A stretch of 34,201 nt of DNA from a virus (Duplodnaviria; Heunggongvirae; Uroviricota; Caudoviricetes). The notes under the pieces were generated by a model. The model was not told the DNA's origin. It did not search any database and worked only from the letters and a program-made list of their open reading frames with translations. The position numbers and the translations under genes were made by a program. Location: positions 1 to 34,201 of IMG/VR virus record IMGVR_UViG_2563366973_000012; one strand, written 5' to 3'. This document shows, one piece after another, positions 1 to 34,201 of this stretch; positions within the stretch are counted from its first letter, which is position 1; every line of letters starts with the position of its first letter.

Positions 1-981
1 TTATAACGTCACTCCGCCTTTTAGTGGATTCAGAGCGACGGCATTTTGCAGATAGTCAGGCGCAAGGTGCGCATAGGCCATCGTCTGCTGAATGCTCGCA
101 TGTCCCAGAATCTGTTGCAGTGCGATTATATTGCCCCCATTCATCATGAAATGGCTTGCGAATGTATGTCGCAGGATGTGGGTTGCCTGATTGGGTGGTA
201 TATCAGGTTTCACTCTGCGTAAAATCCCGCAAAATTTCTCATAATCAACTTTGAATAATTTGGCGCTGGCCTCCTCTTTAACTTTTTTCTCCAGTTCCTC
301 AGAAATCGGCACGGTTCGCTTTTTACCGTTTTTGGTTTTCAGGAAGGTAACCCTGCAATTTGTAATCTGTGCTGGTTTTAGCGTGGCAACTTCCGTCCAT
401 CTTCCTCCAGTGCTCAGACATAAAAGCGCGACAAGTAAGTCATCACCAGCCAAAACATTTAACAGTTTTTCGATTTCTGCTTTTTCCAGGAACGTCATTT
501 CAGGGTTGGCCTCCGCCAGTGGCGGCAGTCCGTGAATTGGGTGTTGCCCGGAAAATTCATCCAATTGAATTAATTTTGTGAACATGCCGGATAATCGGTA
601 TATGTCACGGTTTATCGTTGCGGCACTGATACCATCACGTAGTCGCATGGAACGATAATCCATCAAAGCCCTTTTGCTCATCCTGCTCACTGGTATATCA
701 CCTATGCCGCTGATGGTTTTGAGTAGATGATTAAACTCTTTTGTTCCATGCTCGTGGTTTTGCCCGTGATATTTCCACCAGATGTCCAGCAACTCACTCA
801 AAGTCCGGCGGTCTGCTCGCTGGCCTCCCCATTCTTTCTGACTGGCATTGGCGATTGTGTATCGCTCAAATGCTAGTGCTTCAGCTTTTCTTTCGAATTT
901 CCTGCGGATGCGTTTTCCGTCGCGACCGCGAGGTCTAATGTCCACTTCATAGCGACCATCATCGAGCTTCTTAATTGCCAT
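1..981 (-). CDS. int: P2-type tyrosine integrase; window starts at its stop codon. Start placed at the internal Met (MAIKKLDDGRYEV) rather than the ORF-track start at 1011.
   Basis: Translation matches the recalled P2 Int N-terminus and ends with a tyrosine-recombinase C-terminal region (HxLRHTFAS...LGH...Y). Position and orientation are typical of a P2 prophage left end. Confidence 0.9.
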   Translation of the reverse strand: MAIKKLDDGRYEVDIRPRGRDGKRIRRKFERKAEALAFERYTIANASQKEWGGQRADRRTLSELLDIWWKYHGQNHEHGTKEFNHLLKTISGIGDIPVSRMSKRALMDYRSMRLRDGISAATINRDIYRLSGMFTKLIQLDEFSGQHPIHGLPPLAEANPEMTFLEKAEIEKLLNVLAGDDLLVALLCLSTGGRWTEVATLKPAQITNCRVTFLKTKNGKKRTVPISEELEKKVKEEASAKLFKVDYEKFCGILRRVKPDIPPNQATHILRHTFASHFMMNGGNIIALQQILGHASIQQTMAYAHLAPDYLQNAVALNPLKGGVTL

Positions 982-3509: not shown

Positions 3510-5781
3510 AGCCTCCGGGCGTTTTGTCCCTCCGTCAGCATTTGCCGCAGGCACCGGTGAGACGTTTACCGGTGCTTATGCATGGAACGCGCCACGCGAG
3601 GCCGTCGGGCGCGAAAGACCCCTTACACGTGACGAGATGCGTCAGGTGCAAGGTGTTTTATCCACGATTAATCGCCTGCCTTACTTTTTGCGCTCGCTGT
3701 TTACTTCACGCTATGACTACATCCGGCGCAATAAAAGCCCGGTGCACGGGTTTTATTTCCTCACATCCACTTTTCAGCGTCGTTTATGGCCGCGCATTGA
3801 GCGCGTTAATCAGCGCCATGAAATGAACACCGACGCGTCGTTGCTGTTTCTGGCAGAGCGTGACCACTATGCGCGCCTGCCGGGAATGAATGACAAGGAG
3901 CTGAAAAAGTTTGCCGCCCGTATCTCATCGCAGCTTTTCATGATGTATGAGGAACTCAGCGATGCCTGGGTGGATGCGCATGGCGAAAAAGAATCACTGT
4001 TTACGGATGAGGCTCAGGCTCACCTGTATGGTCATGTTGCTGGCGCTGCACGAGCTTTCAATATTTCCCCTCTCTACTGGAAAAAATACCGTAAAGGACA
4101 GATGACCACGAGGCAGGCTTATTCTGCCATTGCCCGTCTGTTTAACGATGAGTGGTGGACTCATCAGCTTAAAGGCCAGCGTATGCGCTGGCATGAGGCG
4201 TTACTGATTGCTGTCGGGGAGGTCAATAAAGACCGTTCTCCTTATGCCAGTAAACATGCCATTCGTGATGTGCGTGCGCGCCGCCAGGCAAATCTGGAGT
4301 TTCTTAAATCATGTGACCTTGAAAACAGGGAAACCGGCGAGCGCATCGACCTTATCAGTAAGGTGATGGGCAGTATTTCTAATCCTGAAATTCGCCGGAT
4401 GGAGCTGATGAACACCATTGCCGGTATTGAGCGTTACGCCGCCGCAGAGGGTGATGTGGGGATGTTTATCACGCTGACCACGCCGTCAAAGTATCACCCG
4501 ACACGTCAGGTCGGAAAAGGAGAAAGTAAAACCGTCCAGCTTAATCACGGCTGGAACGATGAGGCATTTAATCCAAAGGATGCGCAGCGTTATCTCTGCC
4601 GCATCTGGAGCCTGATGCGCACGGCATTCAAGGATAATGATTTACAGGTCTACGGTTTGCGTGTCGTCGAGCCCCACCACGACGGAACGCCGCACTGGCA
4701 TATGATGCTTTTTTGTCATCCACGCCAGCGTAACCAGATTATCGAAATCATGCGTCGCTATGCGCTCAAAGAGGATGGTGACGAAAGAGGAGCCGCGCGA
4801 AACCGTTTTCAGGCAAAGCACCTTAACCGGGGCGGTGCTGCGGGATATATCGCGAAATACATTTCAAAAAACATCGACGGCTATGCACTGGATGGTCAGC
4901 TCGATAACGATACCGGCAGGCCGCTGAAAGACACTGCCGCGGCTGTTACCGCATGGGCGTCAACGTGGCGCATTCCGCAATTTAAAACGGTTGGCCTGCC
5001 GACAATGGGGGCTTACCGTGAACTACGCAAATTGCCTCGCGGCGTCAGCATTGCTGATGAGTTTGACGAACGCGTCGAGGCTGCACGCGCTGCCGCAGAC
5101 AGTGGTGATTTTGCGTTGTATATCAGCGCGCAGGGTGGGGCAAATGTTCCGCGCGATTGTCAGACTGTCAGGGTTGCCCGTAGCCCGTCGGATGAAGTTA
5201 ACGAGTACGAGGAAGAAGTCGAGAGAGTGGTCGGCATTTACGCGCCGCATCTCGGCGCGCGTCATATTCATATCACCAGAACGACGGACTGGCGCATTGT
5301 TCCGAAAGTGCCGGTCGTTGAGCCTTTGACTTTAAAAAGCGGCATCGCCGCGCCTCGGAGTCCTGTCAATAACTGTGGAAAGCTCACCGGTGGTGATACT
5401 TCGTTACCGGCTCCCACGCCTTCTGAGCACGCCGCAGCAGTGCTTAATCTGGTTGATGACGGTGTTATCGAATGGAATGACCCGGAGGTCGTGAGGGCGC
5501 TCAGGGGCGCATTAAAACACGGCCTGAGAAGACCAAACCGTCAGCAAAGAAACGGAAGCCCGTTAAAACCGCATGAAATAGCGCCATCGGCCAGACTGAC
5601 CCGGTCGGAAAGAATGCAAATTACCCGTATCCGCGTTGACCTTGCTCAGAACGGTATCAGGCCGCAGCGATGGGAGCTTGAGGCGCTGGCGCGTGGTGCG
5701 ACCGTAAATTACAACGGGAAAAAATTTACGTATCCGGTCGCTGATGAGTGGAGTTGGTTTTATTGTTATTCAGAGCAATAA
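3499..5781 (+). CDS. A: Rolling-circle replication initiator endonuclease gpA (HUH family)
   Basis: HUH motif HWHMMLF and tyrosine pair in GYIAKYISKNIDGY are present. Start placed at the ATG at 3499 (MAVKASGRF, the recalled P2 A N-terminus) rather than 3457, which would overlap the preceding gene by about 50 nt. Confidence 0.9.
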   Translation: MAVKASGRFVPPSAFAAGTGETFTGAYAWNAPREAVGRERPLTRDEMRQVQGVLSTINRLPYFLRSLFTSRYDYIRRNKSPVHGFYFLTSTFQRRLWPRIERVNQRHEMNTDASLLFLAERDHYARLPGMNDKELKKFAARISSQLFMMYEELSDAWVDAHGEKESLFTDEAQAHLYGHVAGAARAFNISPLYWKKYRKGQMTTRQAYSAIARLFNDEWWTHQLKGQRMRWHEALLIAVGEVNKDRSPYASKHAIRDVRARRQANLEFLKSCDLENRETGERIDLISKVMGSISNPEIRRMELMNTIAGIERYAAAEGDVGMFITLTTPSKYHPTRQVGKGESKTVQLNHGWNDEAFNPKDAQRYLCRIWSLMRTAFKDNDLQVYGLRVVEPHHDGTPHWHMMLFCHPRQRNQIIEIMRRYALKEDGDERGAARNRFQAKHLNRGGAAGYIAKYISKNIDGYALDGQLDNDTGRPLKDTAAAVTAWASTWRIPQFKTVGLPTMGAYRELRKLPRGVSIADEFDERVEAARAAADSGDFALYISAQGGANVPRDCQTVRVARSPSDEVNEYEEEVERVVGIYAPHLGARHIHITRTTDWRIVPKVPVVEPLTLKSGIAAPRSPVNNCGKLTGGDTSLPAPTPSEHAAAVLNLVDDGVIEWNDPEVVRALRGALKHGLRRPNRQQRNGSPLKPHEIAPSARLTRSERMQITRIRVDLAQNGIRPQRWELEALARGATVNYNGKKFTYPVADEWSWFYCYSEQ

Positions 5782-5897: not shown

Positions 5898-7727
5898 ATG
5901 AATGATATCTTTGTTCTTACAAGGGAAGAGCTTGAAACACTAGATTATAGTGTTTTTATGCATATACCAGTTACATTTCATGCACATAAAATAAAAAAAT
6001 ATCTGGATGGGATTGCTGAATCATCAGAAAACCCCAAAGAGAAAAAATTAGCATCTCTTTTTGGTATGCTATATAGTTTCAATTTGCAAGTTGTTAACAA
6101 CACTCCATCATTTGAACCCCAAATGATTTGGGGTAATAAAAGATCAATATTGCCTGAAGATTTTGATGAGCAGGTGAATGACTGTCTTTTATATGTTTCT
6201 CAAAAAATAACCAATCCATTTTTGTTATCAAGAATATATGATGTTGTTTGGTGTAATAATCGGAAAAATAAAGACGTGGCAATTAAAGCAATTGATTCCT
6301 ATGCTGAAATGCTAAATATAGCAATTGAAAAGCTAATAATAAAAAACGAAAGCATGGATGAAAGTGATTTAAATTGCTTTATTTTTGCTCGTGATTATAT
6401 TGCTAGGGCTTTGCACATTAATAAAATGGTCTACCCTAGAAAATCAGAAGGAAACATGGCGATTAAAAATGCCATTCATTCTCTTTATAGTATTCAAAAT
6501 GAAAGATTAATCTTTGAAGGTTTCAATAATTTGACTTGGTTTATGGTGCGTGATTTTGATGGGTATAATCTGCAGTATGCGGAAAATGCTGAGAAGATGG
6601 CTGAGCAGCATAAAGATAAAAAATATTATGATGCTGTAAAATCACTTTATATGACAAGTGCAGTTATTTATGAAAAAAATGGTGAGTATGAACGTGCCAA
6701 GAGATGTAAACTGGCATCTGCAAATATTACTATTAAAGTTGCAACAGATCGACCTGATAATATGGGTAAGATCTCTTGGTTAAGAACAGCTATCTCTGAA
6801 TTAAGACAGTACGGTGGTGATAGCCAACAGATAGAAGATTTAAAGGAACAACTTGCTAATTTGAGAGAAGAAGTAAGGAGTGAATATGTCACTTTAAGCC
6901 ATTCTATTGATATTAGTGACTTGGTTGCTGAAAGTGAAAAAAAACTGACGGGGCGTTCTTTGCCCGATATATTCAAAGTTTTAATGAGTGAAACACCGAT
7001 TGAAAATATTGAAAGCATGAGGGAACAAGTTTTAAAATTATCAGAAAAAAGTTTATTCTCTAGTTTTGTTGGAACAGAAATTAATGATGAGAGTGGGCGT
7101 AAGATATATACAATCCCGCCGTTGGATAATAAAAAAGATATGAGTGATGATGTTGTTATTGATCAATATCTAAGAAATTTCGAGATTACTCATAAGATTT
7201 TTGTAAACGGTGTCTTTGAACCTGCTCGCTATGTACTTTCTCAAGAACATGGCTTGACGTTGTCAACATTCGTTAAATTGGTTACAACTAGTCCAATTGT
7301 CAAGCCGGAGTTTAGGGAGATTTTTAATTTGGGCTTTTACAAATTATGGCAGGGAGATTACATCAGTGCAGCTTATCTTTTAATACCACAAATGGAAGGT
7401 ATGGTTCGTTATTATTATGAGCTTAGCGGAAAGGATGCTACTAGATATTTGGATAAGGGATTAGAGGAGTCAACAAGTATTTCTCAGCTTCTAGATAAAT
7501 GCAGAGATGATTTGGAAAGTATCTTTTCTAAAAATCTTGTTTTGACTATCGATGTTCTTTTTAACAGAAAGAGTGGGGCAACCTTAAGACATAAATTAGC
7601 ACATGGTAATTTATATACTAATGCTTGTTACGATGAAACAACGACATATGCGTATTTTCATGAAAGGAGATCACTCAATAACTTCCATCGAGATCGGGTA
7701 ATAACATTTGAACAGATCGCTGAATAA
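5898..7727 (+). CDS. Hotspot cargo protein, 609 aa, unknown family; candidate anti-phage/abortive-infection effector with a C-terminal R-x4-H motif (RHKLAH)
   Basis: Long uninterrupted ORF with RBS AAGGTG 7 nt upstream of the ATG at 5898. Strongly AT-rich compared with the backbone. It sits where P2 carries tin/old. The last 6 codons and the stop lie inside the IS21 inverted repeat. Confidence 0.7.
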   Translation: MNDIFVLTREELETLDYSVFMHIPVTFHAHKIKKYLDGIAESSENPKEKKLASLFGMLYSFNLQVVNNTPSFEPQMIWGNKRSILPEDFDEQVNDCLLYVSQKITNPFLLSRIYDVVWCNNRKNKDVAIKAIDSYAEMLNIAIEKLIIKNESMDESDLNCFIFARDYIARALHINKMVYPRKSEGNMAIKNAIHSLYSIQNERLIFEGFNNLTWFMVRDFDGYNLQYAENAEKMAEQHKDKKYYDAVKSLYMTSAVIYEKNGEYERAKRCKLASANITIKVATDRPDNMGKISWLRTAISELRQYGGDSQQIEDLKEQLANLREEVRSEYVTLSHSIDISDLVAESEKKLTGRSLPDIFKVLMSETPIENIESMREQVLKLSEKSLFSSFVGTEINDESGRKIYTIPPLDNKKDMSDDVVIDQYLRNFEITHKIFVNGVFEPARYVLSQEHGLTLSTFVKLVTTSPIVKPEFREIFNLGFYKLWQGDYISAAYLLIPQMEGMVRYYYELSGKDATRYLDKGLEESTSISQLLDKCRDDLESIFSKNLVLTIDVLFNRKSGATLRHKLAHGNLYTNACYDETTTYAYFHERRSLNNFHRDRVITFEQIAE

Positions 7728-7841
7728 CATCGATGGAGATCACTTTTGACTCATTTTGTTATTCAGTGATCTCCATCAATGTTATTGGAACTTCACAGGT
7801 GTGTTGATCTGTATCTTTTGCCATTCCGGTAAAGGATACCT

Positions 7842-9383
7842 ATGCCAACAGTTCCAATTTCTATGAGAAAACTTAAAGAAATTCTTAGGCTTAAATACGG
7901 TGTTGGACTCAGCCATCGACAAATTGGTCGTAGTCTTGCAATCTCCCCTTCCGTTGTATCCAGATATGCTAATCGGGCGGCTCAACTTGGCATAAAGCAG
8001 TGGCCCTTACCTACAGGATGGGATGATACAAAACTAAAACATGCGTTCCTTCAGACCCAGGTTAAGATGAAGAAGCACTCTCTGCCTGACTGGGCTACAG
8101 TACACCGGGAACTGCGTAATAAATGCGTGACGCTGCAGCTACTCTGGGAAGAATACTGTGAGCGTAATCCAGGCGGTTTTTACAGCTATAACCATTACTG
8201 CCGGATGTACCGTGAATGGCTCAAAACCACTTCACCATCAATGCGTCAGGTACATAAAGCTGGCGAAAAACTTTTCGTTGATTACTGTGGACCTACCGTT
8301 GGCGTTACCGACCCTGAGACCGGAGAAATAAGAACTGCTCAGGTCATCGTAGCTGTTCTCGGGGCATCAAGTTACACATGGGCAGAGGCCACCTGGTCTC
8401 AGCAGCTTGAAGACTGGGTGATGAGTCATGTTCGCTGCTTCCAGTGGTTGGGTGGCGTTCCTGAACTTGTTGTTCCGGACAATCTGAAAAGCGCCACATC
8501 CAGGGCATGTAAGTATGATCCTGACGTTAACCCTACCTACCAGCAGATGCTTGAGCATTATAATGTCGCAGTTTTGCCTGCGCGGCCACGTAAACCGAAA
8601 GATAAAGCCAAAGCTGAAGTTGGCGTTCAGGTTGTTGAACGCTGGATCATGGCCCGAATCAGGCATGAGATCTTCTACAGCCTTGCATCGCTTAATCAGC
8701 GCATTCGGGAGTTGCTGGAAAGACTGAATAACAAAATAATGCAGAAGTTGGGTTATTCACGTGCAGAACTCTTCATCCAGCTTGATAAACCCGCACTGAA
8801 GCCTCTTCCTGAAGCCAGTTACAGTTACACCCTGGTGAAGAAAGTCAGAGTTCATGCCGATTACCACGTGGAAATCGACAAACATTACTACTCGGTTCCA
8901 TGTTCGCTGTTAGGCCAGCAACTGGAAGCATGGATCTCCGGAGAACTGGTAAGACTCTTCAATCAGGGGCAGGAGGTTGCTGTGCACCCGCGCAAGCGTA
9001 CTTATGGCTACAGTACCCGCAACGAGCACATGCCTGAAGCTCATCGACAGCATGCCACCTGGACGCCAGAGCGTCTTCTGGAATGGGCGGGGCACATAGG
9101 CAGTGAAACTCATAGTTATGTGCTTCATATACTGAACTCTCGTCCACATCCGGAACAAAGCTATCGCTTCTGCCTTGGACTCCTGAACCTTCATAAAAAA
9201 TACAGTAAAGCCAGACTTAATGCAGCATGTGCAAGAGCTCTGAAAACAAAGGTATGGCGTCTGTCAGGTATTAAATCGATCCTGGAAAAAGGTCTGGATA
9301 AACAACCTGTTCAGGATCCAAAACCAGATCTGTTATCCACGATGGAACACGAAAACGTACGCGGCAGTGAGTATTACCACTGA
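7842..9383 (+). CDS. istA: IS21-family transposase IstA (513 aa)
   Basis: N-terminal HTH-like region followed by an integrase/DDE-type core, immediately followed by istB; typical IS21 two-gene layout. Confidence 0.85.
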   Translation: MPTVPISMRKLKEILRLKYGVGLSHRQIGRSLAISPSVVSRYANRAAQLGIKQWPLPTGWDDTKLKHAFLQTQVKMKKHSLPDWATVHRELRNKCVTLQLLWEEYCERNPGGFYSYNHYCRMYREWLKTTSPSMRQVHKAGEKLFVDYCGPTVGVTDPETGEIRTAQVIVAVLGASSYTWAEATWSQQLEDWVMSHVRCFQWLGGVPELVVPDNLKSATSRACKYDPDVNPTYQQMLEHYNVAVLPARPRKPKDKAKAEVGVQVVERWIMARIRHEIFYSLASLNQRIRELLERLNNKIMQKLGYSRAELFIQLDKPALKPLPEASYSYTLVKKVRVHADYHVEIDKHYYSVPCSLLGQQLEAWISGELVRLFNQGQEVAVHPRKRTYGYSTRNEHMPEAHRQHATWTPERLLEWAGHIGSETHSYVLHILNSRPHPEQSYRFCLGLLNLHKKYSKARLNAACARALKTKVWRLSGIKSILEKGLDKQPVQDPKPDLLSTMEHENVRGSEYYH

Positions 9384-9394
9384 TACGGGATCCA

Positions 9395-10144
9395 ATGATG
9401 AATCATCTTTACGAACAACTGACCGCACTTAAACTCACCGGCTTCCGTGATGCGCTTAAAAAGCAACTTGCTCAACCGGGCACATACCAGGAGCTGGGCT
9501 TCGAAGAACGCCTGTCATTACTGACAGCAGAAGAACTAACCTGCCGTGAAAACAGGAAGGCAGAGCGTCTGATCAAACATGCACGGTTCAGACTTAATGC
9601 TGAGTTATCAAAGCTGGATTATCGTAACAATAGAGGGCTGGACAGGGCCCTCATCCGTTCACTCAGTCAGGGAAACTGGTTAACCCTGAAACAAAATATT
9701 TTACTGACCGGGGCCACCGGCAGCGGTAAAACGTTCCTGGCATGTGCACTTGGTCATAATGCCTGCCGACAGGGATACAAGGTCTACTATTATCGCCTTA
9801 AAGCGCTGATGGAACAGTGCTATCAGGGGCATGCTGATGGAAGATACAGCAAACTTTTGACCAGGCTGAATAATAGCGATCTGCTGCTTCTGGATGACTG
9901 GGGGCTGGAACCTCTCTCATCAGAACAGCGTAGCGACCTGCTGGAAATAGTGGATCTGATGTACCAACGAGGCTCAATCATCGTAGTGAGCCAGTTGCCG
10001 GTGGAAAACTGGTACAAAATGATCGGAGACTCCACACATGCGGATGCCATCCTAGATCGACTGGTTCATGGCAGTATCAAGATCGAACTTAAAGGAGAAT
10101 CAATGCGGAAAATACAATCTCCGTTGACCGAAGGAGATCAGTGA
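9395..10144 (+). CDS. istB: IS21-family helper ATPase IstB (249 aa)
   Basis: Walker A motif GATGSGKT and Walker B-like LLLLDDWG; directly downstream of istA. Confidence 0.85.
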   Translation: MMNHLYEQLTALKLTGFRDALKKQLAQPGTYQELGFEERLSLLTAEELTCRENRKAERLIKHARFRLNAELSKLDYRNNRGLDRALIRSLSQGNWLTLKQNILLTGATGSGKTFLACALGHNACRQGYKVYYYRLKALMEQCYQGHADGRYSKLLTRLNNSDLLLLDDWGLEPLSSEQRSDLLEIVDLMYQRGSIIVVSQLPVENWYKMIGDSTHADAILDRLVHGSIKIELKGESMRKIQSPLTEGDQ

Positions 10145-10467
10145 AGGTAATTTAAAAACGGTTCTGTGAAAGTGACACGAACCGATCTCCATCGATGTTA
10201 CTCACCGATCTCCTTCACGGTAATACGCAACATATGCATGCATCCTGATTTTCTTTCTGTGTGCTTATCCTCTCCTACCATATTTTGATACTGTTTTTGA
10301 ACAGGGCTCTGTTTGATAACGTATACGTTGAGGCATAAAACCTATGCATACTTAGCTGCATCAATTTGCACGAGGTATTTCAGTATGCATTTTCTGCGTA
10401 ATAGTAGGGATTGCTTGGTTTGGTAGTTGTAATTCAACTGCATTCAAACCGACCCATGAAGCGGGCG

Positions 10468-10486: not shown

Positions 10487-10628
10487 TGCGCGCTGGCGGT
10501 GGTGCTGATTTTATTTTTTCAGCGTCTGAGCGCGTCGTGATGGCGTTTAGATTGTTCGCCGGGGCGTTGGTGTGTATGCGGGCTGTTTTGTGCGGTGGTG
10601 AGCGTGTGAGGGCGTGATGACGGGGTGT

Positions 10629-10650
10629 AAAAAAGCCGCCCGCAGGCGGC
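10629..10650 (-). terminator. Rho-independent terminator downstream of Q (minus strand)
   Basis: GCCGCC-CGCA-GGCGGC hairpin with an adjacent A6 run on the plus strand (U-run on the minus-strand transcript), immediately 3' of the Q stop. Confidence 0.5.
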
Positions 10651-10655
10651 GATGT

Positions 10656-11690
10656 TCAGCCGTTGTCAGTGTCCAGTGAGTAGTTTTTAAAGCGGATGAC
10701 CTCCTGACCGAGCCAGCCGTTTATCTCGCGGATCCTGTCCTGTAACGGGATAAGCTCATTGCGGACAAAGACCTTTGCCACTTTCTCAATATCACCCAGC
10801 GACCCGACGTTCTCCGGCTTGCCGCCCATCAACTGAAAAGGGATGCGGTGCGCGTCCAGCAGGTCTGCGGCGCTGGCTTTTTTGATATTAAAAAAATCGT
10901 CCTTCGTTGCCACTTCACTGAGCGGGATAATTTTAATACCGTCGGCTTTTCCCTGTGGGGCGTAGAGAAACAGGTTTTTAAAGTTGTTGCGGCCTTTCGA
11001 CTTCACCATGTTTTCGCGAAGCATTTCGATATCGTTGCGATCCTGCACGGCATCGGTGACGTACATGATGTATCCGGCATGTGCGCCGTTTTCGTAATAC
11101 TTGCGGCGGAACAGCGTGGCCGACTCATTCAGCCAGGCAGAGTTAAGGGCGCTGAGATATTCCGGCAGGCCGTACAGCTCCTGATTGATATCCGGCTCCA
11201 GCAGGTGAAACACGGAGCCGGGCGCGAAAGGTGTCGGCTCGTTGAAGGATGGCACCCACCAGTAAACATCCTCCTCCACGCCACGGCGGGTATATTTTGC
11301 CGGTGAGGTTTCCAGTCTGATGACCTTACCGGTAGTGCTGTAGCGCTTTTCCAGAAACGCATTACCGAACACCAGAAAATCCAGCACAAAGCGGCTGAAA
11401 TCCTGCTGGGAAAGCCACGGGTGCGGGATAAACGTTGAAGCCAGAATATTACGTTTGACGTAAATCGGTGAGCTGTGATGCACGGCAGCACGCAGACTTT
11501 TTGCCAGACCGGTAAAGCTGACCGGTGGCTCATACCATCTGCCGTTACTGATGCACTCGACGTAATCCAGAATATCACGGCGGTCGAGTACCGGCACCGG
11601 CTCACCAAAGGTGAATGCCTCCATTTTCGGGGCGCTGGCAGTCATTGTTTTCACCGCTGGCTGCGGTGTTTTCCCTTTTTTCTTACTCAT
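10656..11690 (-). CDS. Q: Portal protein gpQ (344 aa)
   Basis: Length and position match P2 Q; start ATG overlaps the P stop (ATGA). Confidence 0.9.
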   Translation of the reverse strand: MSKKKGKTPQPAVKTMTASAPKMEAFTFGEPVPVLDRRDILDYVECISNGRWYEPPVSFTGLAKSLRAAVHHSSPIYVKRNILASTFIPHPWLSQQDFSRFVLDFLVFGNAFLEKRYSTTGKVIRLETSPAKYTRRGVEEDVYWWVPSFNEPTPFAPGSVFHLLEPDINQELYGLPEYLSALNSAWLNESATLFRRKYYENGAHAGYIMYVTDAVQDRNDIEMLRENMVKSKGRNNFKNLFLYAPQGKADGIKIIPLSEVATKDDFFNIKKASAADLLDAHRIPFQLMGGKPENVGSLGDIEKVAKVFVRNELIPLQDRIREINGWLGQEVIRFKNYSLDTDNG

Positions 11691-25073: not shown

Positions 25074-25601
25074 ATGCAGCATTTAAAAAACATTAAGTCA
25101 GGTAATCCAAAAACAAAAGAACAATATCAGCTAACAAAGAATTTTGATGTTATCTGGTTATGGTCCGAAGACGGAAAAAACTGGTATGAGGAAGTAAGTA
25201 ATTTTCAGGAAGACACGATAAAGATTGTTTACGATGAAAATAATATTATTGTCGGCATCACCAGAGATGCTTCAACGCTCAACCCTGAAGGTTTCAGCGT
25301 TGTCGAGGTTCCTGATATTACCGCCAACCGACGTGCTGATGACTCAGGGAAATGGATGTTTAAGGATGGTGCCGTGATTAAGCGGATTTATACGGCAGAC
25401 GAACAGCAACAACAGGCAGAATCACAAAAGGCCGCGTTACTTTCCGAAGCGGAAAGCGTTATTCAGCCACTGGAGCGCGCTGTCAGGCTGAACATGGCAA
25501 CAGATGAGGAGCGTAGCCGACTGGAAGCATGGGAACGCTACAGTGTTCTGGTCAGCCGTGTGGATCCTGCAAATCCTGAATGGCCGGAAATGCCGCAATA
25601 A
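25074..25601 (+). CDS. G: Tail fiber assembly protein gpG (175 aa)
   Basis: Immediately downstream of H; size and position typical of a tail fiber assembly chaperone. Confidence 0.8.
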
Positions 25602-25623
25602 GTGATATGATCTCTTGTGTTAG

Positions 25624-25710
25624 TTAACATAGCTATAGTACAGAGTAAGGCCTAATCTGACAGTCCGCTCTGTGCTAGGAGCGGACATTATCAACATCAT
25701 GCTATGTTAA
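25624..25710. repeat. Nested inverted-repeat structure at the left edge of the G-FI hotspot
   Basis: Outer 10-bp inverted repeat TTAACATAGC (25624-25633) / GCTATGTTAA (25701-25710); inner perfect 8-bp stem GTCCGCTC (25663-25670) / GAGCGGAC (25679-25686) with an 8-nt loop. Confidence 0.4.
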
Positions 25711-25926
25711 TGTATAAAGTGAAGATAAATTGATATAATAAGGCCACCATGAATATTTCAGAACCTTGTCAAAAGGTTTGCACATACTCTAGTCTTGCAA
25801 TGTGTAGTTGATAGTTCCACTGAGGAGGTTCTTCGACATTCTTTATAAAAATGTACATTTTCATCAATAATAAGAGGTAAAAGGGCTTTAATAGTTTTTT
25901 GTGGATGTTATGTCCACTCATAAATT

Positions 25927-25955
25927 TTGAGATAAGTATTGAGTTGAGATAAAGT
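25927..25955 (+). promoter_or_regulatory. Candidate sigma70 promoter for the second cargo gene
   Basis: TTGAGA-17 nt-TAAAGT, about 35 nt upstream of the ATG at 25991; RBS AAGGA at 25979-25983. By eye only. Confidence 0.2.
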
Positions 25956-25990
25956 TAAACTCGTTAAATTCACCTTTAAAAGGATAAAGC

Positions 25991-26518
25991 ATGGACTGGA
26001 AAGATCTTGCATCAACCGCTGTGTATACAGGTATGACTGATGAAAATGAAAACATATGGGGACGTGTTGATGGGGTTGACGTTGCCTTCATAGGTGCCTT
26101 TCTTACTGCGCACTTGAGCCTTGAAAAGTATATTACTGATTATCTTGGATTAAGATATCCTTCGTTAGCTTGGGGTGATGCAAAACTCACATTTTCACAA
26201 AAAATAGCTTTAATACAACATGAGCCTGCAAAACCCCCTTATGATGAAATATATTTAAGAATAAAAGACTTTAACAGCATAAGAAATAAAATCAGTCATC
26301 AATTGAATTATCAGATTACGGATAAAGAAAAAAGTAAGTTTGTGGACTTCTACATGAAGATTACTAAAGCCAGTAAAACTAAACCAAATATTGATATTGA
26401 TAACATGGCGGATTTGTTGGATTTTTTCGTATCGATGACAAAATCCTATTTTGCTAGTGCTATTTCTTATTATCACTATAATAAAAAGGTTGCAGGTAAA
26501 AGTAATAAAATTGATTAA
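25991..26518 (+). CDS. Hotspot cargo protein, 175 aa, unknown family; candidate anti-phage effector with an R-x4-H motif (RNKISH)
   Basis: Clean ORF with RBS AAGGA; AT-rich; located where P2 carries Z/fun between G and FI. Confidence 0.65.
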   Translation: MDWKDLASTAVYTGMTDENENIWGRVDGVDVAFIGAFLTAHLSLEKYITDYLGLRYPSLAWGDAKLTFSQKIALIQHEPAKPPYDEIYLRIKDFNSIRNKISHQLNYQITDKEKSKFVDFYMKITKASKTKPNIDIDNMADLLDFFVSMTKSYFASAISYYHYNKKVAGKSNKID

Positions 26519-26691
26519 TAAAACTGGACTTAGGGATAATTAATATATAGACGTTCTATCATTTTTAGAGTGTGCGGCAGCTCCATACATTCATGCGGAT
26601 GTCAGCACCTCGCTCAAAGCAGACAGTCAGATTTGATAGCGTTTGGACTATGTAAATAGTCAGTTGGAAAATGAGTGAGTACAAATCAGGA

Positions 26692-26719
26692 CAGGCGGGC
26701 GAATTGCCCGCCTTTTCTT
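26692..26719 (+). terminator. Rho-independent terminator
   Basis: AGGCGGGC-GAAT-TGCCCGCCT hairpin followed by TTTTCTTT; lies between the cargo gene and the FI late operon. Confidence 0.6.
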
Positions 26720-26816
26720 TATCTGTTGTTTCATCCACTGACCAGCCAGGTCAAATAGCGCCTCATACTCTGCACAACAGAAAATAATTGCACCCATTAA
26801 CCACGGAGTTAAACGG

Positions 26817-28007
26817 ATGAGTGACTATCATCACGGCGTGCAGGTGCTGGAGATTAACGAGGGCACCCGCGTCATTTCCACTGTATCCACGGCCATTGTC
26901 GGCATGGTCTGCACGGCCAGCGATGCGGATGCGGAAACCTTCCCCCTCAATAAACCTGTGCTGATTACCAATGTGCAGAGCGCAATTGCAAAGGCCGGTA
27001 AAAAAGGCACGCTGGCGGCATCGTTGCAGGCCATCGCCGACCAGTCAAAACCGGTCACCGTTGTCGTGCGTGTGGAAGACGGCACCGGCGACGACGAGGA
27101 AACGAAACTTGCGCAAACCGTTTCCAATATCATCGGCACCACCGACGAAAACGGTCAGTACACCGGACTGAAAGCCCTGCTGGCGGCGGAGTCGGTAACC
27201 GGTGTTAAACCGCGCATTCTCGGTGTGCCGGGACTGGACACCAAAGAGGTTGCCGTCGCACTGGCATCAGTCTGTCAGAAGCTGCGCGCTTTCGGGTATA
27301 TCAGCGCATGGGGCTGTAAAACCATTTCCGAGGTGAAAGCCTACCGCCAGAATTTCAGCCAGCGTGAGCTGATGGTCATCTGGCCGGATTTCCTCGCATG
27401 GGATACGGTCACCAGTACTACCGCCACCGCGTATGCCACCGCCCGTGCGCTGGGTCTGCGTGCCAGAATTGACCAGGAGCAGGGCTGGCATAAAACGCTG
27501 TCCAATGTCGGGGTGAACGGTGTTACCGGCATCAGCGCCTCTGTATTCTGGGATTTGCAGGAGTCCGGCACCGATGCTGACCTGCTTAACGAGTCAGGCG
27601 TCACTACGCTGATTCGCCGCGACGGTTTCCGCTTCTGGGGTAACCGTACCTGCTCTGATGACCCGCTGTTCCTCTTTGAAAACTATACCCGCACCGCGCA
27701 GGTGCTGGCCGACACGATGGCTGAGGCGCACATGTGGGCGGTGGACAAGCCCATCACCGCAACGCTGATTCGCGACATCGTTGACGGCATCAATGCCAAA
27801 TTCCGTGAGCTGAAAACAAACGGCTATATCGTGGATGCGACCTGCTGGTTCAGCGAAGAATCCAACGATGCGGAAACCCTCAAGGCCGGAAAACTGTATA
27901 TCGACTACGACTATACACCGGTACCTCCTCTTGAAAACCTGACCCTGCGCCAGCGTATTACCGATAAATACCTGGCAAATCTGGTCACCTCGGTTAACAG
28001 CAATTAA
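26817..28007 (+). CDS. FI: Tail sheath protein gpFI (396 aa)
   Basis: Length and position match P2 FI. Confidence 0.9.
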   Translation: MSDYHHGVQVLEINEGTRVISTVSTAIVGMVCTASDADAETFPLNKPVLITNVQSAIAKAGKKGTLAASLQAIADQSKPVTVVVRVEDGTGDDEETKLAQTVSNIIGTTDENGQYTGLKALLAAESVTGVKPRILGVPGLDTKEVAVALASVCQKLRAFGYISAWGCKTISEVKAYRQNFSQRELMVIWPDFLAWDTVTSTTATAYATARALGLRARIDQEQGWHKTLSNVGVNGVTGISASVFWDLQESGTDADLLNESGVTTLIRRDGFRFWGNRTCSDDPLFLFENYTRTAQVLADTMAEAHMWAVDKPITATLIRDIVDGINAKFRELKTNGYIVDATCWFSEESNDAETLKAGKLYIDYDYTPVPPLENLTLRQRITDKYLANLVTSVNSN

Positions 28008-33559: not shown

Positions 33560-34201
33560 ATGGAAAAAGTTATAATTGAGCTTGATAATCGTTGGGAGTT
33601 AGCTGATTTCGCGGTCTTAACGAAAGAGTATTTGCAGCTATATGGTTTTTTTTATGGCCTAAAAGGAGGATCAAGAGGATATTCAACAATGCCTTGGGAG
33701 GGTGGGCACAGTGTAGTGAACTTTTTTAGAGGGGCTTACAGTGCGACTCCACCAGATTTACGTCCTGTAGTGAAAAAAATTCAGTATGCCTCTCCTGGCT
33801 TTATTGAATTGTCTGCTCTTATTGATATCTCTTGGCAGATTGCTGAGTTAGTTACTGCTGTTGGTGGAAGTATTCTGGCTGCCAACAAAGTTTACGATCA
33901 GGTGATGCGTACATATCGACAAAGAGAATGGGCAAAGTTGAAATCAGAGAAGCTGCGTATACAGAATCAAATTAAAGAGATTGAACTTGTTTCTGACGCA
34001 GTTAAATCACTTGAATCTGTGATGGCACTTAGTGAAGAACAACGTAAAAACTTGGTTCAACTATCGGGGGCAGATGAACTGGTTCAGTTAAAGATACTTT
34101 TGGCTGTTTACCGACGGTTATCTCCTCTTGTTGAGTTGCAAAACAGCGGGAAAGCTAATTTTTCTGCAGGGAAAAATAAAAATTTAAAAGCGTCCGATTA
34201 A
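33560..34201 (+). CDS. Hypothetical protein (213 aa), AT-rich, beyond the prophage right end; unknown function
   Basis: Complete ORF ending at the window edge; the helical, K/E-rich C-terminal half is suggestive of coiled coil. Not part of the P2 backbone. Confidence 0.45.
   Translation: MEKVIIELDNRWELADFAVLTKEYLQLYGFFYGLKGGSRGYSTMPWEGGHSVVNFFRGAYSATPPDLRPVVKKIQYASPGFIELSALIDISWQIAELVTAVGGSILAANKVYDQVMRTYRQREWAKLKSEKLRIQNQIKEIELVSDAVKSLESVMALSEEQRKNLVQLSGADELVQLKILLAVYRRLSPLVELQNSGKANFSAGKNKNLKASD

What the first reader, a model, noticed from the sequence alone, without database searches (positions are those of the whole stretch)
25602..26560. Uncharacterised 175-aa cargo protein in the P2 Z/fun hotspot
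Directly visible: about 1 kb of AT-rich DNA is inserted between the tail fiber assembly gene G and the sheath gene FI. It carries one clean ORF (25991-26518) with an RBS and about 390 bp of AT-rich upstream DNA with promoter-like hexamers. Established knowledge: the G-to-FI position is the second P2 variable locus, occupied by Z/fun in P2 and by other defence genes in relatives. Inference: the protein contains R-N-K-I-S-H, an R-x4-H arrangement as seen in HEPN RNases (weak evidence on its own), in a small, probably all-helical protein. It is a candidate stand-alone toxin or abortive-infection effector, and would need a partner or a phage-encoded trigger if it is toxic.
Basis: partly seen in the sequence, partly recalled or inferred. 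Interest (0 to 1): 0.7.

Follow-up and report, generated by a model that had tools for sequence, protein, structure and literature searches.

The report
Solo HEPN defence candidate in P2
The 175-residue gene between the tail-fibre-assembly and sheath genes of this E. coli P2-like prophage encodes an unannotated HEPN-type ribonuclease distantly related to HepS, a stand-alone abortive-infection protein of a Salmonella prophage, so it is a credible but untested anti-phage gene, and it sits inside a small transposon-like cassette.

Summary
ORF 25991-26518 is real: it has an RBS, dN/dS is 0.13-0.15, and the identical protein occurs on 727 contigs. It lies in a 1,080-bp AT-rich insert between P2 genes G and FI.

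No partner gene is conserved. Relatives sit beside Avs5, AbiV, AbiGi, SIR2 and PDC-S31 genes.

Most likely it is a resting, trigger-activated RNase that aborts infection by other phages. Trigger and RNA target are unknown and nothing is tested.

The "390-bp upstream DNA" is not just a leader. It holds an 85-nt terminal inverted repeat and the decayed start of a second small gene that is intact in relatives.

The whole insert (25604-26683) is a cassette bounded by inverted repeats. Outside P2, copies of this cassette type carry 7-bp target-site duplications and other defence cargo.

Verdict: new member of a known kind, moderate interest.

The parts
25991..26518 (+). Gene for the 175-aa solo HEPN protein (RefSeq WP_001554309.1, annotated 'hypothetical protein')
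   Evidence: ORF. phrog_5483, function unknown, E 6e-60. No hit in Pfam, NCBIfam or PADLOC. dN/dS 0.13-0.15. HEPN fold.
26282..26299 (+). Codons for R98-N99-K100-I101-S102-H103, the predicted HEPN RNase active-site motif
   Evidence: R98 100%, N99 99% and H103 99% conserved in 69 sequences of 20-29% identity. These residues align with HepS R100, N101 and H105.
26123..26125 (+). Codon for E45, the invariant acidic residue of helix 1 (H41 is also 99% conserved)
   Evidence: E45 aligns with HepS E48. A conserved upstream acidic residue is a HEPN feature (PMC3710099).
25980..25984 (+). Shine-Dalgarno-like AAGGA, 6 nt upstream of the ATG
   Evidence: Read from the sequence.
25604..26683 (.). Whole inserted cassette (1,080 bp) bounded by terminal inverted repeats. 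It starts 2 nt after the G stop codon and ends 9 nt before the terminator stem.
   Evidence: Homology to P2-like phages with other cargo stops at 25685-25691 and resumes at 26593-26634. Repeat ends were identified by comparison with non-P2 copies. The flanking 7-mers AATAAGT and AATCAGG match at 5 of 7 positions.
25604..25688 (+). Left terminal inverted repeat. The inner 35-nt arm 25654-25688 forms a 9-bp hairpin.
   Evidence: Hairpin -17.3 kcal/mol, z -2.6.
26599..26683 (-). Right terminal inverted repeat. The inner 35-nt arm is 26599-26633, with an R-type centre TTTGAGCGAG that differs from the L-type TCTGTGCCAG.
25749..25811 (+). Relic of a second cargo gene ('X', 170 aa and intact in Superficieibacter and Dryocola). 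Here it is reduced to 20 codons plus a stop. Nucleotide homology to X and its upstream region spans 25651-25898.
26693..26722 (+). Strong intrinsic terminator (9-bp GC stem plus T tract) just outside the cassette, in backbone shared with other P2-like phages. It is probably the natural terminator of the V-to-G late operon and would also end the cargo transcript.
   Evidence: -20.1 kcal/mol, z -4.9. It lies inside the conserved right flank.
25074..25601 (+). P2 G-like tail fibre assembly gene (context)
   Evidence: Caudo_TAP, E 1e-36.
26817..28007 (+). P2 FI-like tail sheath gene (context)
   Evidence: Phage_sheath_1, sheath_1C and Gp18_domIII_N.

Best explanation
The gene encodes a single-domain HEPN ribonuclease that works alone as a prophage-borne abortive-infection sensor and effector, in the manner of HepS. 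It would be made in the lysogen in a catalytically closed resting oligomer. A protein of an infecting phage would bind its variable N- and C-terminal surfaces and bring the R98/N99/H103 sites of two protomers together. The enzyme would then cut host RNA, possibly tRNA anticodon loops, stopping translation before the invader completes its cycle. The P2-like host phage would be spared because it lacks the trigger. Shown here: the HEPN fold, the conserved catalytic motif, homology to HepS, the absence of a conserved partner, and residence in defence islands and in a mobile cassette. Inferred only: expression in the lysogen, oligomeric state, trigger, RNA substrate and any protection.
For: Motif and core: R98 and E45 are invariant, and N99, H103 and H41 are 99% conserved, in 69 relatives of 20-29% identity. 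68 of 69 carry R[NDHQ]xxxH.

Sequence link to HepS: the family profile against PDB gives E 4e-7, with Csm6 next at 0.0035. hhalign gives 95.6%, E 1.3e-8, over 88 columns, pairing E45/E48, R98/R100, N99/N101 and H103/H105. HepS R100 and H105 are experimentally required, and HepS is a solo, non-toxic-at-rest, trigger-activated tRNA anticodon nuclease (PMC13043305).

Solo status: the neighbours differ in every context. They are Avs5 (L016), SIR2/PDC-S25 (L017), AbiV plus PDC-S31 (L018), AbiGi (L011), DUF2971 plus a reverse transcriptase (L013), and the other P2 hotspot (L015). The only recurrent neighbour, gene X, is dead in the window while the HEPN gene is intact on 727 contigs.

Selection and variability: dN/dS is 0.13-0.15. 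The catalytic core is conserved (2.4-2.5 bits per column), while the N-terminus, the post-catalytic helix and the C-terminus are variable (1.3-1.4 bits), as expected for fast-evolving sensor surfaces.

Locus: Z/fun is an established anti-phage locus (PMC8594841, PMC9122126).
Against: There are no experimental data. No defence-system model recognises the protein (PADLOC, E up to 10: nothing).

A lysogenic promoter is not demonstrated: hexamer matches are at chance level.

Some distant family members sit in non-defence neighbourhoods (P0200 lies between halogenase and glycosidase genes). One (Cupriavidus P0189) looks like the third gene of a DprA-containing operon, so not every member need be solo.
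Confidence: 0.6

Rival explanations
1. It is the toxin half of a former two-gene module. The upstream gene X, or another lost partner, was its antitoxin or sensor, and the copy in this prophage is an orphan that is inactive or only weakly active.
For: In Superficieibacter and Dryocola a 170-aa gene X sits about 300 bp upstream on the same strand inside the same cassette. The window keeps its promoter-proximal region and first 20 codons. X itself carries R-N-W-L-A-H. In Pectobacterium the upstream gene is a true paralogue (hhalign 97.6%). HEPN toxins are often paired, for example HepT-MntA and RnlA-RnlB (PMC3710099).
Against: X is absent from L011, L015 and L018. It is pseudogenised here while the HEPN gene stays under purifying selection and is widespread. 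X is not detectably related to the family (hhalign 3.5%) and matches no antitoxin, Pfam or PADLOC model. Losing an antitoxin of an active toxin would be lethal.
Confidence: 0.12
2. It is a non-defence HEPN protein: an RNA-binding or regulatory moron in the style of MtlR/YggD, or an RNase that adjusts host or phage transcripts for the prophage's own benefit.
Against: In MtlR the catalytic motif is conserved in only about 60% of members and is lost in a subset, and the gene sits in mannitol operons (PMC3710099). In this family the motif is conserved at 99-100%, and the neighbourhoods are defence islands and mobile cassettes. Most P2-like phages dispense with the gene: only 49 of 2,044 E. coli genomes that match the flanks carry it.
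Confidence: 0.12
3. It is a decaying passenger of a transposon-like cassette with no current function.
For: The cassette also holds a dead gene. Cargo in such cassettes turns over very fast (93 ORF clusters in 77 loci).
Against: The ORF is intact. dN/dS is 0.13-0.15, the catalytic residues are invariant, and the identical protein occurs on 727 contigs.
Confidence: 0.05

Closest known systems
HepS (STM14_3211) of Salmonella prophage Gifsy-1, PDB 9oij/9oik (PMC13043305)
   Different: Identity is only about 19% over 88 core columns, and nothing is detectable outside residues 37-126. HepS N- and C-termini are disordered at rest and form a beta-sheet with the lambda J tail-tip peptide. Here the model shows a preformed N-terminal hairpin and a long C-terminal helix. 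The host phage is a myovirus in a tail-gene hotspot rather than a lambdoid phage. Trigger, oligomer and substrate are unknown.
MtlR/YggD family (PDB 3brj, 3c8g, 6kcr), DUF4145-like branch of HEPN
   Different: MtlR is a mannitol-operon regulator with the catalytic motif frequently lost (PMC3710099). No significant sequence match was found, and the genomic context is different.
[not shown]
   Same: It occupies the same locus between G and FI. It is a single-gene abortive-infection determinant carried as replaceable cargo (PMC8594841, PMC3091744).
HEPN toxins with partners (HepT-MntA, RnlA-RnlB, AbiV-type HEPN)
   Same: They share the HEPN fold and the RNase chemistry expected from R-x4-H.
   Different: No MNT or other conserved neighbour is present. 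There are no Pfam or PADLOC hits to these families.
Inverted repeats flanking fun in phages and bacteria (Nilsson et al. 2004, as summarised in PMC8987985); mobile insertion cassettes (a comparison recalled from my own knowledge, not checked against a source here)
   Same: The cargo is bracketed by inverted repeats that also occur around related cargo in bacterial chromosomes.
   Different: The literature summary speaks of site-specific recombination. Here the non-P2 copies show 85-nt terminal repeats with 7-bp target-site duplications, which is the signature of transposition. I could not read the 2004 paper to see how much of this it already reports.

Membership tests
HEPN superfamily | Helical bundle core with the catalytic helix carrying the motif | tested here: met
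   [not shown]
HEPN superfamily | R-x4-6-H motif with a polar residue (N, D or H) after the Arg (PMC3710099) | tested here: met
   R98-N99-x3-H103. The motif is present in 68 of 69 diverse relatives and invariant in 21 close ones.
HEPN superfamily | Second conserved acidic residue upstream, typically as E-x3-[KR] | tested here: inconclusive
   E45 is 100% conserved in helix 1 and aligns with HepS E48. However, the position four residues on is T, S or D rather than K or R.
HEPN superfamily | Metal-independent endoribonuclease activity | not testable with these tools
   This needs biochemistry.
HepS-type solo HEPN abortive-infection proteins | Detectable homology to HepS | tested here: met
   The family profile against PDB gives E 4e-7. 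hhalign gives 95.6% over 88 columns. Foldseek ranks HepS first. Homology covers the core only, at about 19% identity. Whether the published set of 393 HepS homologues includes this family could not be checked, because no supplement is held.
HepS-type solo HEPN abortive-infection proteins | No conserved partner gene; found on prophages and defence islands | tested here: met
   Ten homologue contexts all have different neighbours, and six of them sit next to known defence genes.
HepS-type solo HEPN abortive-infection proteins | N- and C-terminal segments that form a composite beta-sheet with the trigger | tested here: inconclusive
   An N-terminal hairpin (residues 10-25) is predicted, but the C-terminus is helical. 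There is no sequence similarity to the HepS termini.
HepS-type solo HEPN abortive-infection proteins | Resting tetramer opened by a siphovirus tail-tip J peptide; cleavage of tRNA anticodon loops | not testable with these tools
   This requires expression, mass photometry, trigger screens and tRNA sequencing.
HEPN-MNT (HepT/MntA) toxin-antitoxin | Adjacent minimal nucleotidyltransferase antitoxin gene | tested here: not met
   No such ORF is present in the cassette or next to homologues.
MtlR/YggD | Membership by sequence and mannitol-operon context | tested here: not met
   There is no Pfam MtlR hit, and the context is a phage cassette. The resemblance is in fold only.
Catalogued defence systems (PADLOC v2) | Match to any model | tested here: not met
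   No hit at E up to 10.
Transposon-like cassette (non-autonomous element) | Terminal inverted repeats plus target-site duplication and no transposase inside | tested here: inconclusive
   In copies outside P2, 11 of 22 have perfect 7-bp duplications, while control 7-mers reach at most 4 of 7. Cargo ORFs fall into 93 clusters, and none of the 10 representatives scanned against PADLOC was a transposase. In the window copy only 5 of 7 flanking bases match, so this copy is old or was rebuilt by recombination.

The most novel reading that the evidence does not exclude
The protein founds a distinct, widespread family of stand-alone HEPN immune sensors (367 clusters at 50% identity, all unannotated). 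The family shares only its catalytic core with HepS and recognises a different phage trigger through its own N- and C-terminal surfaces. It is also delivered by a so far uncharacterised non-autonomous transposon (85-nt terminal repeats, 7-bp target duplications). This transposon constitutes the P2 Z/fun hotspot and moves defence cargo such as CBASS, AbiH and Avs5 between phages and chromosomes. That would give a concrete mechanism for hotspot turnover, which recent work calls unresolved.
Probability: 0.35. Interest if true: 0.7.

Novelty: new member of a known kind. Interest (0 to 1): 0.45.

Why it matters
If it protects, it adds a compact single-gene immune sensor to the E. coli repertoire. 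It is present in clinical lineages: 49 complete genomes, many of them human isolates. Its relatives span Proteobacteria, and none is annotated.

Comparing it with HepS would show which parts of a solo HEPN protein set trigger specificity and which are the fixed catalytic engine.

The cassette structure matters separately. It suggests that the second P2 hotspot is a fixed transposon-like shell whose ends are shared with free-living copies in chromosomes. This offers a testable route for the rapid swapping of defence genes between phages and hosts.

Tried and rejected
- **Direct family scans.** Scans of the protein against Pfam, NCBIfam and PADLOC gave nothing. PHROGs gave only an unnamed family.
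- **RNA families.** Rfam on 25300-27000 gave no credible RNA, so there is no support for an sRNA in the upstream region.
- **Promoters.** The promoter scan was at chance level.
- **Fold libraries.** The viral fold library gave no meaningful match. The AlphaFold-database library was unavailable.
- **Retrieving HepS.** Attempts with a 44-residue fragment failed three times. A degenerate DNA pattern then recovered the sequence from IMG/VR.
- **Locus search with the diverse alignment.** The close alignment found only 3 of 185,579 species representatives.
- **Gene X as a paralogue or antitoxin.** Rejected as a paralogue (hhalign 3.5%), with no family match.
- **The inner arms as plain terminators.** The left arm folds (z -2.6) but has no T tract, and the right arm does not fold.
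- **The IS21-family element elsewhere in the window as the mobiliser of the cassette.** Its ends (TGCGTATT..., with GGAGATCAC repeats) are unrelated to the cassette ends.
- **A transposase inside cassette copies.** None turned up among the 10 cargo representatives scanned against PADLOC. Those that matched a model were defence proteins instead.
- **Literature.** A search for the accession found nothing. Nilsson 2004 and Odegrip 2006 are not held.

Full report
**1. What is in the sequence**

The window is a P2-like prophage of E. coli integrated between cpxP and fieF. Its finding region is 100% identical to NZ_CP082062 and eight other complete genomes.

At 25074-25601 lies the tail-fibre-assembly gene (Caudo_TAP, E 1e-36). 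At 26817-28007 lies the sheath gene. Between them GC falls from 0.50-0.58 to 0.29-0.38.

The only substantial ORF there is 25991-26518 on the + strand (175 aa), preceded by AAGGA six bases upstream.

RefSeq calls it "hypothetical protein" (WP_001554309.1). The identical protein is on 727 contigs. 49 of 5,426 complete E. coli genomes carry the island, whereas 2,044 match the flanking phage genes.

Against homologues in Superficieibacter, Dryocola and Pectobacterium, dN/dS is 0.13-0.15.

**2. What the protein is**

Direct scans against Pfam, NCBIfam and PADLOC find nothing. PHROGs places it in phrog_5483, function unknown.

A search of 5.8 billion proteins gives 24 close relatives, all in Enterobacterales and all unnamed. 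In these, R98, N99 and H103 are invariant.

A profile of these against 1.84 billion cluster representatives gives 367 hits, mostly stand-alone proteins of 160-210 aa. In an alignment of 69 of them, at 20-29% identity to the query:
- E45 and R98 are invariant.
- H41, N99 and H103 are 99% conserved.
- 68 of 69 carry R[NDHQ]xxxH.

That is the HEPN signature as defined by Anantharaman et al. (PMC3710099): R-x4-6-H with a polar residue after the Arg, plus an upstream acidic residue.

Members of the family score weakly against several HEPN Pfam models: Cthe_2314, Csm6 HEPN, MAE_28990, RiboL-PSP, DUF4145 and Abi_2.

With the deep alignment, AlphaFold gives a confident model (pLDDT 91.4, pTM 0.82). 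It has an N-terminal beta-hairpin (residues 10-25) followed by helices 31-55, 61-75, 87-103 (ending in the motif), 111-128 and 139-173.

- A long series of HEPN proteins: AF0298 8.2, TTHA0636 7.7, HepT toxins 7.4 and 7.1, sacsin HEPN 6.5, AbiA 6.5, Cas13b 6.3, AbiF 6.3, Csm6 5.6 and Las1 5.4.

Foldseek against PDB puts HepS first (E 0.018, probability 1.0, TM 0.43-0.47 over about 160 columns).

**3. The link to HepS**

The single sequence already gave HepS as its best, though not significant, PDB match (E 0.16). The close-family profile improved this to 0.015. The diverse profile reached 4e-7, with Csm6 next at 0.0035.

I recovered the HepS sequence from IMG/VR with a degenerate DNA pattern. 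Profile-to-sequence comparison gives 95.6% probability, E 1.3e-8, over 88 columns (window 37-126 against HepS 40-128). It pairs E45 with E48, K71 with K76, R98 with R100, N99 with N101 and H103 with H105.

According to PMC13043305, HepS is a single-protein abortive-infection system of prophage Gifsy-1 with these properties:
- It is constitutively expressed and not toxic at rest.
- It is a tetramer whose R100/H105 sites are occluded until the tail-tip protein J of an infecting siphovirus binds its N- and C-terminal segments.
- It then cleaves specific tRNA anticodon loops.
- R100 and H105 are required for activity.

The window protein shares the catalytic core and the solo lifestyle. It shows no detectable similarity in the trigger-binding ends. 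In the family those ends, together with the helix after the motif, are the least conserved parts (1.3-1.4 bits per column against 2.4-2.5 for helix 1 and the catalytic helix).

**4. Context of homologues**

The gene travels alone. The contexts examined were:
- A 58%-identical copy follows the tail fibre of another P2-like prophage, next to an AbiGi gene (L011).
- A 63% copy lies in the other P2 hotspot, between ogr and the replication gene (L015).
- An 81% copy lies in a Pectobacterium island with a tandem paralogue, DUF2971/PDC-S31 and a reverse transcriptase (L013).
- 86-88% copies in Superficieibacter and Dryocola sit beside Avs5 and a SIR2/PDC-S25 gene (L016, L017).
- A 62% copy in Enterobacter sits beside AbiV and PDC-S31 (L018).

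Distant members (about 30% identity) occur in several settings: after a DprA-like gene in Cupriavidus, next to an integrase and a TA antitoxin, in a transposase-rich contig, and once in an ordinary metabolic neighbourhood.

No neighbour is conserved. Six of ten contexts contain recognised defence genes.

**5. The upstream DNA and the cassette**

Comparison with P2-like phages that carry other cargo (L-413C, Wphi, pro147, 12474III) places the breakpoints at 25685-25691 and 26593-26634. Just inside the conserved sides lie 35-nt inverted arms, 25654-25688 and 26599-26633.

The same arms flank the homologous genes outside P2: L016 5105/10608, L017 5086/9224, and several copies in L013. A left-type centre (TCTGTGCCAG) and a right-type centre (TTTGAGCGAG) are kept distinct everywhere.

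Of these, 48 have the P2 sheath gene downstream, 22 lie at contig ends and 50 have no sheath gene.

In the non-P2 copies the repeats extend to about 85 nt, beginning TGTATTAGCTCAGA. They are flanked by 7-bp direct repeats, which are perfect in 11 of 22 testable loci, while control 7-mers never exceed 4 of 7. One 6.7-kb copy carrying a type II CBASS occurs at two different sites with different duplications (L058 GATAAAG, L066 GGTGATG).

Cargo between the arms in 77 loci falls into 93 ORF clusters, including AbiH, CBASS and PDC-S64. No transposase appeared among the 10 representatives scanned.

By the same criteria the window copy runs from 25604 to 26683. That is 2 nt after the G stop codon and 9 nt before a strong intrinsic terminator (26693-26713, z -4.9) that belongs to the shared phage backbone. 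Its flanking 7-mers match at only 5 of 7 positions. The cassette therefore appears to have landed between gene G and its terminator, and the cargo would use that terminator.

Inverted repeats around fun in phages and bacteria were reported by Nilsson et al. 2004, according to PMC8987985. I could not read the original, so I treat the cassette as a known phenomenon that I have characterised further, not as a discovery.

Inside the cassette, 25651-25898 is homologous to the left end and the first part of a 170-aa gene "X" that is intact in L016 and L017. In the window it is reduced to 20 codons and a stop (25749-25811), with the rest deleted.

X carries R-N-W-L-A-H, but it is not detectably related to the family (hhalign 3.5%) and matches no Pfam or PADLOC model.

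There is neither, only a dead neighbour. Rfam finds nothing. Its death while the HEPN gene persists argues against an obligatory partner.

**6. Mechanism and rivals**

The best-supported reading (confidence about 0.6) is a HepS-like, trigger-activated solo HEPN RNase acting in abortive infection.

Shown:
- the fold
- the conserved active-site residues
- homology to HepS
- the absence of a conserved partner
- the defence-island and hotspot context
- purifying selection

Inferred:
- expression in the lysogen
- oligomeric gating
- the trigger
- the RNA target (I put tRNA at about 0.3)
- protection itself

The rivals are an orphaned toxin of a former two-gene module (0.12), a non-defence regulatory or RNA-binding HEPN protein like MtlR (0.12), and a functionless passenger (0.05). 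The arguments for and against each are listed in the rival section.

**7. Novelty and score**

The fold, the chemistry, the solo-HEPN abortive-infection concept and the hotspot are all known. What is new is that this particular unannotated family (no Pfam, NCBIfam or PADLOC model) can be placed next to HepS, and that it is a ready-to-test candidate. Hence "new member of a known kind", interest 0.45.

The most novel reading still open has two parts: a distinct sensor specificity, and delivery by an uncharacterised non-autonomous transposon that forms the P2 Z hotspot. I put this at 0.35.

Noticed in passing
window 25604-25688 and 26599-26683; L016 5049-5139 / 10574-10664; L051, L055, L058, L066, L083, L085, L087, L095, L100, L122, L150: The P2 Z/fun locus is bounded by about 85-nt terminal inverted repeats that begin TGTATTAGCTCAGA. 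The same repeats bracket unrelated defence cargo (CBASS II, AbiH, Avs5, SIR2) outside P2. There they are flanked by 7-bp target-site duplications, perfect in 11 of 22 testable loci. No transposase was seen among the 10 cargo proteins scanned. Left and right inner arms keep different central sequences.
   Followed up: partly
window 7649-10229: An IS21-family insertion sequence (IstA 7842-9383 with rve and Mu-transposase C domains; IstB 9395-10144) sits in the other P2 hotspot, between the replication gene and the portal gene. It has TG...CA ends, internal GGAGATCAC repeats and an apparent 5-bp duplication ACATA. Its ends are unrelated to the Z-cassette repeats. The otherwise near-identical prophage in NZ_CP082062 has a DUF7380 gene in this region instead.
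   Followed up: partly
window 25749-25811 (homology 25651-25898); L016 5194-5706; L017 5181-5693: A decayed remnant of a 170-aa gene with an R-N-W-L-A-H motif lies upstream of the HEPN gene. The gene is intact in Superficieibacter and Dryocola and has no family assignment.
   Followed up: partly
L013 4284-4784 and 5001-5510: In Pectobacterium two paralogues of the family sit in tandem (hhalign 97.6% for the upstream one). They are followed by further arm-like repeats at 5613, 7234 and 8680 that separate other cargo genes, so the island looks like a stack of cassettes.
   Followed up: no
L024-L026 4453-6576: In Cupriavidus a 30%-identical family member follows, with a 25-nt gap, a DprA-like gene and a 188-aa unknown gene. 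This may be a three-gene system in which the HEPN protein is the effector. It recalls the DprA-PRTase system of the P2 hotspot in PMC9122126.
   Followed up: no
window 26693-26722: A strong intrinsic terminator lies 9 nt beyond the cassette, in backbone shared with other P2-like phages. It implies that the cassette inserted between gene G and the terminator of its operon.
   Followed up: partly
window 33560-34201: At the end of the window, after where ogr is expected, the near-identical prophage in NZ_CP082062 annotates a further 213-aa hypothetical gene next to the attachment site. This may be a third cargo position. The ORF was not verified in the window and was not analysed.
   Followed up: no
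L023 (phage vB_EcoM-569R9, ON470601) 1192-1743: The only sequenced phage isolate with this gene has a 183-aa version at 93% protein identity, although the DNA is 98.6% identical. This suggests an indel or frame change near one end of the gene.
   Followed up: no
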